From positions 34,720,001 through 34,784,000 of the forward strand of contig OZ024754.1 in the NCBI GenBank assembly GCA_964016885.1: 64,000 nt of DNA, read 5' to 3'. A program made the translations under genes and the position numbers. This document shows positions 55,700 through 62,717 of the stretch, one piece after another. The notes below the pieces were generated by a model that saw only the letters and a program-made list of their open reading frames with translations, searched no databases and was not told the origin of the DNA. Positions within the stretch are counted from its first letter, which is position 1. Each line of letters opens with the position of its first letter. This DNA is from Eledone cirrhosa (Eukaryota).

Positions 55700-56897
55700 C
55701 TGGTTTCTGTTAAGAACTATTCCAGTCACTCATCACAACCTGAATAAAGTTGCTAGCAATCAACAATAATAATACTGTAACAACAATAAACAAAATACTA
55801 ATCCCTAACCCTTTTGATAGCAACCTGAATGAAACCAGCTCTGCTTCTAAGAAATAAAACCACCCAATATAATTTGATAAGAATTATATGGCCTTAGTAA
55901 TGAAATAATTTTAATATGAGGGTTGACTGAAAAGTTCATGGAATGACTAAATGAGGTTTATTTTTCAACATAGTCCCTGGAAAGAAACAATGCAGTTATT
56001 AATAGTTGAGTTGAAATTAACGCAAGCAAAATTTCACAGCTCTAGCATCACTACTTCACAGTGTGAAAAGTTTTGTAAACACTGGTTTAGATGCACATTG
56101 ATATTGTGTTTTCTCATTCAGGAAGTCCTCCTGGTTCAATTTCTAATGCTAAGTTACAGTCAGCTCTCCTATCTGTATTGAGAATAGGGCTTCAATTTTT
56201 AGCTGAATTGTAGAATTACTTTTAATTTCATCTGGAAGTTAACCCATCCCATTACCAAATTTTGAGGAAGAGGAGAATATAGCAGTTATATTCTTAGCAC
56301 AGGTAAAGCTTTCTTGTTTATTAATGAGTCATTGATTTTACATCCATTCAACCACACTTGCAGGAGTTGAACGAAGGCTAAAGTTTATTTCAGTCTCATT
56401 GCTGTTAAGCAACTAAGAGTACACCTACTCCTCCTGGACAAGACATCACAGAGCTAACTTCCAGCTGCCATTGGTACACCTTTTCAGCCAACTGAACAGG
56501 AGCAACAGGAAATAAAATGCCTTGCTCAAATACACAATGTGCTACCCATTCTTGGAATCAAACTCACACACTTGTATCTTTTTGATTTGGAAAACATTAG
56601 TTTAGCTTTCATCATCATTTAACGGCTATCTTCCACGCGAGCATGGGTTTAGACGGGAATTGTCCCACATGAAGCAAGATTGGTTGTCTTGCTTCCCTTC
56701 CTAACACCAACCACGTTTACAGTGTGAACTGGGAGGTTTTTACCGTGTTACCTACATGGCCACATTACAGCGTGGACTGTGTGCTTTTTTTTTTTTTGTC
56801 GTGACACCTACACGACCTCATTTATTGTCAATTCTCCAAAGCATACAGGAACAACGAAAATACTTGTCATTGTTTTCAGAGTAATTGAAAAGGATAC
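55700..56897 (-). other. U12-type GT-AG intron of MOCS3
   Basis: Donor GTATCCTTT; branch TTCTTAAC followed by purine-rich AGAAACCAG. Confidence 0.9.
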
Positions 56898-56997
56898 TGA
56901 TAGCTTCCTTTGGTAGAGAACAGATTTCTAATTCAACAGGTTGCCGAACATCAATGAGGACATGAGGTAAGGGTTGATCTAGAAAAGTTTTGTACTC
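56898..56997 (-). CDS. MOCS3: MOCS3 exon, start of the rhodanese domain
   Basis: tttacag|GAG...ATCA|gtatcctttt; EYKTFLDQPLPHVLIDVRQPVELEICSLPKEAI. Followed by a U12-type donor. Confidence 0.94.
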
Positions 56998-57597
56998 CTG
57001 TAAACAACAATAATAGACATTAAACATTGGCACTACTACAATAACAGTCTAGAAGTAGCTGCAGGTTCTTTGAGATACAAATAGAAGACTGTAATATATA
57101 TACATTATTATCGTCTATTTTCCACACTAGCATGGGTAGGACGGGCTGTGCCGTGTATATATATATTTTAATAGCAAGGAGCAGGAATATAGCATCATTA
57201 TGTTTATTCACATGTGACGCATGCTTCATGATTGATCAGTATTGATTGTGCTTGACTCTGGAATCAATAGCTCATCAGACTTGTGGATTTGGTGAACCAA
57301 TAAACTATATATATATAAAGTCTGCATTCAACTCGATGGCGACAGACAAAATCAATTACTATGGAAACCAGGAAAACTATTATACATAAAAAGAAAGAAA
57401 CTAGCTTTCTAAATCAGACCAACCCTCATTCCATCTAAGAGGTTAGTGGCCCTTGTTAAGTACTGACTTGGTCTGTGAAAACCTGTCCAACCCTTGCTAG
57501 CAGGGAAAATAAATGGTGATGATGATAAAATGGTAGCATTAACGAAAGGTAATTTCTAATGGGTGTGACAACTGGCAGGGATGTTGTATAAACTTAC

Positions 57598-57645
57598 CAG
57601 TGCTGAAATTCGGTGTTCATTTGGCAAAATGGATACACTACCTTC
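57598..57645 (-). CDS. MOCS3: MOCS3 linker exon
   Basis: ttcttcag|GAA...CTG|gtaagt; EGSVSILPNEHRISAL, phase 0-0. Confidence 0.9.
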
Positions 57646-58339
57646 CTGAAGAAAAAAAGAAAAATAAAGATTTAACTTTCTAGTTATATGTAAACATTGT
57701 GGCTGAACAAGTACTGGATAACTGACGTAAATGCCAGGATGTATGGTCCTGTAAAACCTGGCCATGCCCATCTCCATGTCTGAATACAGCAGATTTCTTC
57801 CAGAGAAGGATAGACAGAATAAGAGAATGGAAGTGACAAAGAGATATAGAGGATGAATCGACCCTATTATTAGACTTTATCGATCTTAAATGGATGAAAT
57901 ACAAAGTTGATCTCAGCAGGATTTGAACGCAGAGAGCCAGAATGAATAACACAAACATTCTAATGACTCTGCCTATTTGCTGCCTTAAATGTCATGATAT
58001 CCAGCCTTAAAATAGGGATTATGTCTTCTTGTGTTTAACTAAGACAAACAAACGAGCCAATTAGTACTGAAAACTATTAAACATGATAAATGGACTGAAG
58101 GACAGCATCATAATCTTCCTATTCCAAAGTGGTAAACTCGTTAACTGGGATGTGACCTGCAGTGGTATTTCCACCACTAGTAACCTGGTCAAATCCAAAC
58201 CTTATTTACTCAGAATTTGAAGTTGGTGAAAATTATTAAAATATTGACCCTGAATACAAGCACTTCTACCATCATTTTTTGATTGCATATTCCTCACCTC
58301 ATATTCAAGTATATACGGTAGTAACATATAAACCATTAC

Positions 58340-58500
58340 CTTATCATGTGCTTGGGAGCCACAAAACTGTTCATAATCTATCAATTTTGGTTTGGAGCCC
58401 TCTCCACAGACAATGCAGCTCTTTTGTGAAGGACGAAGTTTTACTTTACGAAATGAGCAATCCATTCCATCAAAGAGAAGTAAGTGTTGTTTCAATGATG
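58340..58500 (-). CDS. MOCS3: MOCS3 exon with the second CxxC
   Basis: gtcttaacaatatgttcag|CA...AAG|gtaatg; [54 protein letters not shown]. Confidence 0.95.
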
Positions 58501-60674: not shown

Positions 60675-60783
60675 TGACACCCAAAACTCCTCCATCTGAG
60701 CAATTAGTTACTGTTTCTGGTAAAGGAGGTTGAGGGAAGAGACAGCGATAACATGGACCACCTTCATGGTTATAAACAGTCAA
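60675..60783 (-). CDS. MOCS3: MOCS3 exon with the first Zn-binding CxxC
   Basis: ttccag|TTG...GTCA|gtaagt; [36 protein letters not shown]. Confidence 0.96.
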
Positions 60784-60919
60784 CTGGAAAAAAAAAAAAA
60801 TTCTGCAAATGTCAATGGGTTCAATGCTGTCCTGTATGTATAAAAAAATAATTATCTAAGCACCTTTATTTAGCTATGTTATAAATACCAACTCAGTAAT
60901 AAGAAAGTTCAGTAATGTT

Positions 60920-61270
60920 CTGGGTAATTGCTGGCCTTGTGCCAAAAGTAGAAACAATTATTAAATCCACCGAGGTTAACTTTGCTTTTCATCCTTACTG
61001 GGGTCGATAAAATAAAGTACCAGTAATGCACTGGAATAATTGCTGGCTTTGTGCCAAAAGTAGAAACAATTATTAAATCCCTCTGTGGTGGATTGGCAGA
61101 ATCAGTGGAGCGTCAGACACCATGCTTTGCAGCATAGTGTTATGGCCCTTTACGTACTGAGTTCAAATCCCACCGAGGTTAACTTTGCCTTTCATCCTTA
61201 CAGGGTCGATAAAATAAAGTATCAGTAATTCACTGGGGTAATTGCTGGCCTTGTGCCAAAAGTAGAAACA
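60920..61270 (+). mobile_element. Tandem SINE family B copies
   Basis: Repeated gctggccttgtgccaaaagtagaaaca tails and two cores. Confidence 0.85.
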
Positions 61271-61776
61271 TGGTAATTTATATTTACTATTATATTTTCA
61301 TGATTATTTCACATAATATCGAATCTAAGATTTTGATATTATTTATTTTGAGAACACTACCTTAACATAAGTATGAGCAGCTGGTTATGGCTAGTTTAAC
61401 AGAAAGAGGTGAGAGAATTCTGGCTGGATATGGCCGGTTTAAATGCTAAAGAGTTAAACTTGTTCCACTTATAATGTAACAGTTCAAAACGTTTAAGGTC
61501 AATCATATTTCTAAATTTTTATAGATAAGCGAGATGCAGATCCCTCGGACTATCTGGGAGGTCAGTAGCCTTGCTTTAGTCCTGACTTCAAAGCAGATGT
61601 TAAACATACACTTTATTTTTTAAACAGTCATATTTACATAAACACACACACGAGGAATTAACATCACTGCTGGTGCTGGTGGTGGTGATGTCGAGTATAA
61701 TTAATATCGTGAGATAAAATCAAATACTAGGAAAATAAAACAGGGGGTGAAGAGGTAGAGTGGAGAAGATACTTAC

Positions 61777-61894
61777 CTGTCCTTCAAATCGCAGAGCACT
61801 GCCAGAAACAAGAGGCTTGCCAGAGATGACACAGGCATCATTAACTAGGTATCGTGTAGCCACATTATCTGAGGCATCTACTACAATGTCATAA
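61777..61894 (-). CDS. MOCS3: MOCS3 exon
   Basis: [39 protein letters not shown]|gtaagt. The frame-compatible acceptor is the non-canonical tctttaacttagctgtg|T. Confidence 0.93.
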
Positions 61895-62717
61895 CACAGC
61901 TAAGTTAAAGATTATAGCTTGATAGTGTGGATAATGTGAACTCTGTAGTGTGGGTAGCAGTGTAGTGTAGAGAGCAGAGATTTGTGACATGAATATGAAA
62001 CTGTCAGCAATTTTTTAATGTATCAGACTGAGGAAGAAGGATAGTGCCCATAGCCTTTTTTCAGGACCTCTCAAACTGAGATTGAGAGGAGAAAGAAGAA
62101 GTGGTTATACCCTGACTCAACACAGGTCCTCTCTGAAACTGTGAATGGGAAGAGGAAGAGGTGGTTATCCCCTGACTGGAATTCTGGCTTGTATGTCTAC
62201 AACAGAGTGGATTCCAGTGAAAGTACTCAAGAGACAGATTTTGGTAGTAAACATTAAACAGGACAACAGATTAAGTCCACCCCACCCAACAGTACAATTT
62301 CTGCCTGTGGAACTAAGGCTACAGTAGAATATATTTGCTGTAGGTGCTGTGCAGTGGGATTTAACATGAAACTAGATAGTTGTGAAGCAAATTCCTTCAC
62401 CATATAGCCATGGTAGAAGAAGCAAGCTGTGGGAATATTCTCTTTTTCAGATTAGCAAAACCAAATTGTAGGAGACCCAAGGGTAGACCTCGAGCAAGAT
62501 GGATGGATAACATCCATGAGCTTGGCTGGTCTCTCTTGGGGATCCCACCAAATCAACTGGAGACAGTTGCTTCTAACTAACTGGAAGGAGTGTTTGAGGA
62601 CTCTGCTCCCAACGAACCTCGCAGTAATAAGTGGACGAAGAAAAAGCATAGATGGTATGCCAGACAAATAGCTAGGGGTACAGTTAGTGAAACAGTCAGA
62701 GACCAGTTAAAGGATAC
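61895..62717 (-). other. U12-type intron of MOCS3 (apparent GT-TG termini)
   Basis: Donor GTATCCTTT; branch-like TCTTTAAC 9 nt before the frame-compatible 3' end; no polypyrimidine tract. Confidence 0.8.
62450..62630 (+). mobile_element. RTE-like LINE 3' end fragment inside a U12 intron
   Basis: AKPNCRRPKGRPRARWMDNIHELGWS. Confidence 0.75.

What the first reader, a model, noticed from the sequence alone, without database searches (positions are those of the whole stretch)
55700..62717. Three minor-spliceosome (U12) introns in one MOCS3 gene
Seen: 3 of the 9 introns in the window start GTATCCTT (62717, 59252, 56897). Each has a TCTTTAAC/GTCTTAAC/TTCTTAAC branch 9-11 nt from the 3' end and no pyrimidine tract; phases are 2, 1 and 1. 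The other six begin GTAA. Known: RTATCCTT plus a TCCTTAAC-like branch defines U12 introns, most host genes have only one, and they tend to be slowly spliced. Inference: sulfur relay for Moco synthesis and URM1-dependent tRNA wobble thiolation could be gated by minor-spliceosome activity here.
Basis: partly seen in the sequence, partly recalled or inferred. Interest (0 to 1): 0.72.

Follow-up and report, generated by a model that had tools for sequence, protein, structure and literature searches.

The report
Triple minor-intron gene, one TG-ended
This octopod gene for the sulfur-transfer enzyme MOCS3 has three introns with the signals of the rare "minor" splicing machinery, and a spliced transcript contig shows one is cut at TG instead of the usual AG; they are likely ancient introns that other lineages lost or converted, and a regulatory role is untested.

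Summary
The single-copy MOCS3/UBA4 gene (448 aa, 84% identical to Octopus bimaculoides MOCS3) has 11 coding introns; three start GTATCCTT, with branch adenosines 11-13 nt from the end, and pair with this genome's own U11, U6atac and U12 snRNAs. One spliced contig (run X4) fixes all three junctions. Intron 62717-61895 ends in TG; the nearer AG and the next three AGs are out of frame. GT-TG is a known but very rare minor subtype (29 introns, 0.039%, in a published animal set). The positions are old: this intron is GT-AG minor-type in Arabidopsis and other plant-like loci and major-type in a bivalve-like locus, which keeps the second minor intron. Zebrafish mocs3 is already listed with a minor intron that responds to rnpc3 loss; human MOCS3 is an orphan retrogene. 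So dependence on the minor spliceosome is likely; a tuned gate on Moco synthesis and tRNA thiolation is untested and not favoured. The scan noted the same triple and TG end before in another octopus genome (e1-9934455, unchecked). New member of a known kind; interest 0.38.

The parts
55479..63711 (-). MOCS3/UBA4 gene, coding exons 3-12 of 12 (exons 1-2 lie beyond the window at G000:C14:34785301-34785206 and 34784433-34784292; 448 aa)
   Evidence: Pfam ThiF and Rhodanese on single exons; named MOCS3 hits
63619..63711 (-). coding exon 3 (nucleotide-binding Gly-rich motif)
63219..63339 (-). coding exon 4
62718..62792 (-). coding exon 5 (75 nt), upstream of the GT-TG intron
61895..62717 (-). intron 5: U12-type, GT-TG, 823 nt, phase 2, splits codon 176 (His)
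   Evidence: joint L005 6394->7218, skips 823, ends CA..AC on +, both=0; no in-frame AG
62710..62717 (-). U12-type 5' splice site GTATCCTT of intron 5
61904..61911 (-). U12-type branch site TCTTTAAC of intron 5; branch A 11 nt from the TG end; skipped out-of-frame AG at 61901-61900
61777..61894 (-). coding exon 6 (118 nt), begins right after TG
   Evidence: X4 contig piece 61777-61894, 0 other letters
60675..60783 (-). coding exon 7
59253..59315 (-). coding exon 8
58501..59252 (-). intron 8: U12-type, GT-AG, 752 nt, phase 1, codon 273; branch site GTCTTAAC 58519-58512, branch A 13 nt from the end
58340..58500 (-). coding exon 9
57598..57645 (-). coding exon 10
56898..56997 (-). coding exon 11 (start of rhodanese domain region)
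55700..56897 (-). intron 11 (last): U12-type, GT-AG, 1198 nt, phase 1, codon 376; branch site TTCTTAAC 55716-55709; a nearer out-of-frame AG (55708-55707) is skipped
55479..55699 (-). coding exon 12 with rhodanese domain and stop codon

Best explanation
The MOCS3 gene keeps three old introns that the minor (U12) spliceosome likely removes, and in the first of them the 3' cut falls at TG, likely because the minor spliceosome places it by distance from the branch point and not at the nearest AG. Steps: U11 and then U6atac pair with positions +4 to +9/10 of GTATCCTT (pairing computed with this genome's snRNA genes; use inferred); U12 pairs with the branch octamer, bulging an A (computed; use inferred); the cut is made 11-13 nt after that A (junctions shown by one spliced contig), passing a too-near AG in introns 5 and 11. 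Any failure gives a premature stop (computed). The TG end likely arose from AG by one change and is tolerated; the three introns persist by inheritance, not as a built switch (inferred).
For: Junctions: table 5 and table 8 (one contig, 1391 nt; exon 6 piece starts at 61894 with 0 other letters; 75 letters between it and exon 4 equal exon 5). No second copy or retrocopy: 10 matches of 11 candidates, all at this locus. TG in the DNA: three 1065-nt contigs of one sample span the site without a difference there, two of them carrying other letters at 61774 and 62109. Protein: His176 aligns without a gap to His in Argonauta and O. bimaculoides and to one residue in all 19 homologues aligned. snRNA genes: U12 1, U11 2, U4atac 1, U6atac 15 matches. 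Pairing: the three donors give U11 duplexes of -5.7 to -6.6 kcal/mol and U1 duplexes of -1.3 to -2.3; the other 8 give U11 -3.3 to +2.2 and U1 -4.5 to -14.0. Branch distance 11, 13, 11 nt matches the optimum of 11-13 nt in PMC3584512 (passage). Age: intron 5 position and phase are held by a GTATCCTT intron ending AG in 18 of 25 metagenome loci (3 sequence groups; L023 is 99% identical to Arabidopsis MOCS3 over its last exon), by GTATCCTA..AG in animal-like L026, and by a major-type intron in bivalve-like L034; intron 8 is U12-type in L034; intron 11's position holds a short major-type intron in fungal-like L015.
Against: Splicing by the minor spliceosome was not shown for this gene; intronIC could not be run. 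The junction evidence is one contig from one run of one study whose library is not on record (RNA inferred from the exon joins). The branch site of intron 8 pairs less well (5.5 of 7), equal to the best chance site in intron 1, which lies 30 nt from the end. The metagenome pattern demanded TAAC before the exon, so those loci are selected for U12-like ends and give no frequency. Intron 11 was seen as U12-type in no other locus; no animal locus covered it.
Confidence: 0.85

Rival explanations
1. Regulatory gate: three slow minor introns, one with a weak TG end, make MOCS3 output, and with it Moco synthesis and tRNA wobble thiolation, follow minor-spliceosome activity.
For: Single-copy gene; retention of intron 5, 8 or 11 stops the frame at 182, 280 or 401 aa and the near AGs stop it at 181 or 382 aa, all before the rhodanese motif at residue 406. 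A zebrafish mocs3 minor intron is mis-spliced in both rnpc3 mutants (PMC11347168 Table S6 row). Run X4 holds intronic contigs of 628 and 151 nt in intron 11 and 152 nt in intron 8: a weak hint only, since contigs give no level and the table is cut.
Against: Responding to loss of the machinery shows dependence, not regulation. Human MOCS3 is listed among orphan retrogenes (PMC3548309 table passage). The plant-like loci that reach the 3' end (L013, L014, L023, L024, L033) lack introns 8 and 11, and L034 has a major-type intron 5. Sheth 2006 notes that more than one U12 intron might add nothing to splicing dynamics. The one MOCS2B intron examined starts GTAAGC and its two loci hold no RTATCCT on the coding strand.
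Confidence: 0.15
2. The TG end is an artefact (assembly error, private allele, or mis-joined contig) and the intron ends at an AG.
For: GT-TG is very rare among minor introns (29, 0.039%, in animals; PMC10639083 Table S1). An AG lies 5 nt upstream. The DNA runs may be the source of the assembly.
Against: That AG and the AGs at +14, +17 and +26 all shift the frame; the joint has no ambiguity (both=0); X4 is a second sample code and agrees; the protein aligns without a gap.
Confidence: 0.03
3. One or more of the three introns is spliced partly or wholly by the major spliceosome (minor-like or hybrid).
For: All start GT and two end AG; the genome is AT-rich so 3' regions are about 60% pyrimidine; L034 shows that conversion at intron 5 has happened elsewhere.
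Against: Poor U1 pairing (-1.3 to -2.3 kcal/mol), none has G at -1, and nearer AGs are skipped in introns 5 and 11.
Confidence: 0.07

Closest known systems
Genes with three U12-type introns: 3 each in human and mouse (Olthof 2019, PMC6717393, passage); SLC sodium/hydrogen exchangers (Sheth 2006, PMC1557818, section 24)
   Same: Three minor introns among major ones in one gene; an instance of the known non-random clustering (also PMC7367187, passage).
   Different: A sulfur-relay enzyme in a mollusc, not an ion exchanger; one of the three has a non-canonical end.
Non-canonical GT-TG U12-type introns (1 mouse case of 66 non-canonical in Sheth 2006 Table 2; 29 animal and 15 plant cases in Larue and Roy 2023 Table S1)
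   Same: U12 donor and branch site with TG in place of AG; one-letter switch from the canonical end seen in orthologues.
   Different: Here TG is the only frame-keeping acceptor of a single-copy housekeeping gene and is backed by a spliced contig; the tables seen name no MOCS3 case.
Zebrafish mocs3 minor intron 17:42829244-42829344(-) (Olthof 2024, PMC11347168 Table S6, one row seen)
   Same: Same gene family, minor class, mis-spliced on rnpc3 loss.
   Different: One intron listed; which position it holds could not be mapped here.
Arabidopsis MOCS3 (CNX5; the name CNX5 recalled) locus L023 and other plant-like loci
   Same: U12-type intron at the same codon and phase as intron 5; 7 of its 10 introns share positions with this gene.
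   Different: Ends AG, about 90-110 nt long; introns 8 and 11 absent.
Human MOCS3, orphan retrogene (Ciomborowska 2013, PMC3548309, table passage)
   Same: Same enzyme family.
   Different: A retrogene that replaced its parent, so it needs no minor splicing.

Membership tests
U12-type (minor) intron | 5' splice site RTATCCTT | tested here: met
   3 of 11 introns, GTATCCTT
U12-type (minor) intron | Branch site complementary to U12 snRNA with bulged A | tested here: met
   6.5, 5.5, 6.5 of 7 pairs (wobble = 0.5) with the genome's U12; other 8 introns 3.0-5.5
U12-type (minor) intron | Branch point 11-13 nt from the 3' end | tested here: met
   11, 13, 11 nt against junctions; optimum from PMC3584512
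U12-type (minor) intron | No distinct pyrimidine tract | tested here: met
   0.50-0.61 against 0.72-0.94
U12-type (minor) intron | Minor snRNA genes in the genome | tested here: met
   U11, U12, U4atac, U6atac over Rfam cut-offs
U12-type (minor) intron | Canonical termini GT-AG or AT-AC (usual, not defining) | tested here: not met
   Met for introns 8 and 11; intron 5 is GT-TG, a recorded rare subtype
U12-type (minor) intron | intronIC or PWM classifier score in the minor range | not testable with these tools
   No such program or matrices at hand; snRNA pairing used in its place
U12-type (minor) intron | Splicing depends on U11/U12/U6atac | not testable with these tools
   Needs knockdown; only the zebrafish orthologue row is on record
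MOCS3/UBA4 | N-terminal ThiF/E1-like domain plus C-terminal rhodanese domain | tested here: met
   Pfam ThiF on 3 exons (2 over the cut-off) and Rhodanese on the last exon, of 6 exons scanned
MOCS3/UBA4 | Full-length similarity to named MOCS3 proteins, single copy | tested here: met
   84.2% to O. bimaculoides, 78.6% to Argonauta over 448 aa; one locus
MOCS3/UBA4 | Adenylates and thiocarboxylates MOCS2A and URM1 | not testable with these tools
   Established for the family (abstract starts and own knowledge); not assayed
Minor introns as regulated switches (U6atac model, PMC3728624, listing only) | Condition-dependent retention that limits protein output | tested here: inconclusive
   Only contigs, no levels

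The most novel reading that the evidence does not exclude
The TG end is a conserved octopod feature that locks intron 5 into the minor pathway (no in-frame AG is left for the major spliceosome) and, with two further minor introns, makes MOCS3 an unusually sensitive read-out of minor-spliceosome activity, coupling it to tRNA wobble thiolation and so to codon-biased translation.
Probability: 0.13. Interest if true: 0.72.

Novelty: new member of a known kind. Interest (0 to 1): 0.38.

Why it matters
It adds a rare three-minor-intron gene outside the ion-exchanger family and a natural, transcript-backed GT-TG minor intron that is the only frame-keeping acceptor of a housekeeping gene. One intron position is seen in several states across lineages (GT-AG minor in plants, GT-TG here, a probable AC end in L016, major in L034, absent in L015 and in the human retrogene), a compact series for testing how the minor spliceosome picks its 3' site and how minor introns convert or vanish. 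Gene finders that demand AG would mis-draw this exon. If the gate idea held, it would tie minor splicing to tRNA modification.

Tried and rejected
First model with AG ends for introns 5 and 11 broke the frame and was replaced. The look-up of sequencing runs listed no holder on record as RNA; X4 was judged RNA-derived only from its exon joins. X4 shows no cover in the single-copy part of intron 5 (61923-62223): no evidence either way on retention. URM1 (PF09138) and CTU2 (PF10288) were not found in the own genome by exon-wise search: not absence, so their introns are unexamined. Introns 1 and 2 (GTATTG) were tested as hidden U12 introns and rejected: poor U11/U6atac pairing, no branch site at the right distance. 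The other RTATCCT hits of the window (28962 +, 11353, 12111, 54284 -) were only looked at in context; about 2.8 GTATCCTT are expected by chance on both strands. L015's intron near intron 8 is one codon off and was not counted as shared. L016's aligner call of 'no intron' is read-through: the donor lies outside the contig. L017, L019 and L030 are open through the site and uninformative. A look-up by sequence among earlier findings gave only bacterial notes. Two mutational papers on U12 3' ends were not held, so the efficiency of a TG end is not cited. Paper searches for MOCS3 with U12 or minor terms listed one unrelated review holding MOCS3, intron and U12 and no paper on MOCS3 minor introns among the rows shown; none of the 20 listed of 235 held 'minor spliceosome'. 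Subscription papers, the intron databases (U12DB, IAOD, MIDB) and supplements of the store that gave no answer were not seen and may already list these introns.
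Full report
Observation. The region holds a MOCS3/UBA4 gene on the minus strand. GTATCCTT occurs 3 times on that strand in the 64 kb window, at 62717, 59252 and 56897, exactly as stated, and once on the plus strand outside the gene. A first model using the first AG after each branch site broke the frame. Testing every acceptor within about 25 nt showed that intron 59252 closes at the AG at 58501 and intron 56897 at the second AG, 55700, while intron 62717 has no in-frame AG at all; the frame-keeping site that fits the protein ends in TG at 61895.

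The whole gene. Two more coding exons lie beyond the window, giving 12 exons, 11 introns and 448 aa. The three candidates are introns 5, 8 and 11, at codons 176, 273 and 376. Single exons hit Pfam ThiF and Rhodanese; the model is 84.2% identical to Octopus bimaculoides MOCS3 and 78.6% to Argonauta MOCS3, so the organism is an octopod-like cephalopod. A search of the own genome gave 10 matches from 11 candidates, all at this locus, so there is no sign of a paralogue or retrocopy.

Transcript evidence. Four runs hold the stretch, none on record as RNA. Run X4 has one 1391-nt contig that joins the exons. Laid on the full gene it gives joints for 10 of 11 introns among 15 rows shown (the other 5 rows do not match exon ends); intron 2 is not listed, but the contig's coordinates run on into exon 2. 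The joint for intron 5 skips 823 nt with ends CA..AC on the plus strand, that is GT..TG, and cannot slide (both=0); introns 8 and 11 read CT..AC, also both=0. The tool marks the letters between as not known, but the record coordinates leave exactly 75 letters for the 75-nt exon 5. Three DNA-like runs of one sample span the TG without a difference there, two carrying other letters at 61774 and 62109, so both haplotypes likely have TG; these runs may be the source of the assembly. This is one contig, one study.

Are they U12-type? The genome encodes U12, U11, U4atac and U6atac and U1. Against these sequences the three donors pair well with U11 (-5.7 to -6.6 kcal/mol) and at 5-6 of 6 positions with the U6atac box, and poorly with U1 (-1.3 to -2.3); the other eight show the reverse. 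The branch octamers pair with U12 at 6.5, 5.5 and 6.5 of 7, with the bulged A 11, 13 and 11 nt from the end, the optimum given in a review (PMC3584512, passages), which also says that donor and branch site, not the termini, define the class, and that non-canonical termini work, often less efficiently. In introns 5 and 11 an AG nearer to the branch is skipped; its use would stop the protein at 181 or 382 aa, and retention would stop it at 182, 280 or 401 aa, before the rhodanese motif at 406. Dependence on the minor spliceosome is inferred, not shown.

How old? A degenerate pattern for a TAAC branch followed by the conserved exon 6 start found 25 metagenome loci, 8 groups at 93% identity. My spliced aligner, which rebuilt all 9 window introns in a self-test whose profile included this protein, was run on all 25. 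Eighteen loci in 3 plant-like groups have a GTATCCTT intron ending AG at the codon and phase of intron 5; L023 is 99% identical to Arabidopsis MOCS3 over its last exon and shares 7 of its 10 intron positions with this gene. Animal-like L026 has GTATCCTA..AG there. Bivalve-like L034 (84.5% to Mya) has a major-type intron 5 and a U12-type intron 8. L016 shows a perfect branch site and an AC 11 nt later, donor outside the contig. Fungal-like L015 lacks intron 5, has a short major-type intron at exactly the place of intron 11 and one a codon away from intron 8. Three loci are open through the site. The five plant-like loci that reach the 3' end lack introns 8 and 11. The pattern selects for U12-like ends, so these counts show existence, not frequency. 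Intron 5 thus predates the plant-animal split, intron 8 is at least shared within molluscs, and the position of intron 11 likely predates animals.

What is known. Genes with three minor introns are rare but known: 3 each in human and mouse (PMC6717393, passages), sodium/hydrogen exchangers in an older count (PMC1557818, section 24); clustering is non-random in all 21 genomes tested (PMC7367187, passages). At the O. bimaculoides fraction of 401 minor among 114,266 introns (PMC11347168 Table S4 row) three of eleven has a chance of 7e-6. GT-TG minor introns are on record: 1 of 66 non-canonical cases (PMC1557818 Table 2) and 29 animal (0.039%) and 15 plant cases (PMC10639083 Table S1). Zebrafish mocs3 has a minor intron that responds in both rnpc3 mutants (one supplementary row). 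Human MOCS3 is listed as an orphan retrogene (PMC3548309, passage), and retroposition is a known route of U12 intron loss (PMC2831892, passages). My searches listed no paper on MOCS3 minor introns, but databases and unseen supplements may hold them. This scan noted the same triple with a TG end in another octopus genome and a GT-AT intron in a chimaera MOCS3; both are unchecked notes. If the first is right, TG is shared by two octopods.

The gate idea. For it: one gene copy, three points of failure, zebrafish dependence, and intronic contigs of X4 in intron 11 (628 and 151 nt) and intron 8 (152 nt), which are a weak hint at most. Against it: lineages run the same pathway with one minor intron, a converted one or none; the one MOCS2B intron seen is major-type; and dependence is not regulation. 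I give it 0.15.

Verdict. Real, well supported and more specific than first described: a three-minor-intron MOCS3 gene with a GT-TG intron that the minor spliceosome likely cuts by distance from the branch point. Both features belong to known, rare classes. New member of a known kind; interest 0.38.

Noticed in passing
window 46195-46596 (+): Last exon of a kinase gene with a KA1 domain (Pfam E 8.8e-19), facing MOCS3; likely a MARK/PAR-1-type kinase (name recalled).
   Followed up: partly
L034 (metagenome contig, bivalve-like): Intron 5 position has a major-type donor yet keeps a branch-like CTAAC near the 3' end, while intron 8 is U12-type: a likely U12-to-U2 conversion.
   Followed up: partly
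L016, minus strand, about 217 nt from the contig end: Perfect U12 branch site followed 11 nt later by AC at the intron 5 position: probably an AT-AC version; donor not in the contig.
   Followed up: partly
L015 1174-1229 and 1593-1639: Fungal-like MOCS3 with short introns: one at exactly the intron 11 position (major-type), one a codon away from intron 8, possibly sliding or misalignment.
   Followed up: partly
L003 about 2205 and 1291 (minus): Introns 1 and 2 both begin GTATTG, halfway in look between the two donor types, but score as major-type.
   Followed up: yes
window 55756-55906, 55975-56602, 59059-59210: Intronic contigs in run X4 inside U12 introns 11 and 8; retention, pre-mRNA or another transcript.
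   Followed up: partly
L003 about 5300-9100: Long stretch of higher GC that looks like a LINE-type retroelement upstream of the gene (impression from the sequence only).
   Followed up: no
G000, 15 places: U6atac has 15 matches against 1-2 for the other minor snRNAs; O. bimaculoides also shows many U6atac rows.
   Followed up: no
window 21300-28500, 43200-44150, 44660-46070, 53260-54050: Very AT-rich simple repeats and two longer-unit tandem arrays that give spurious long ORFs.
   Followed up: no
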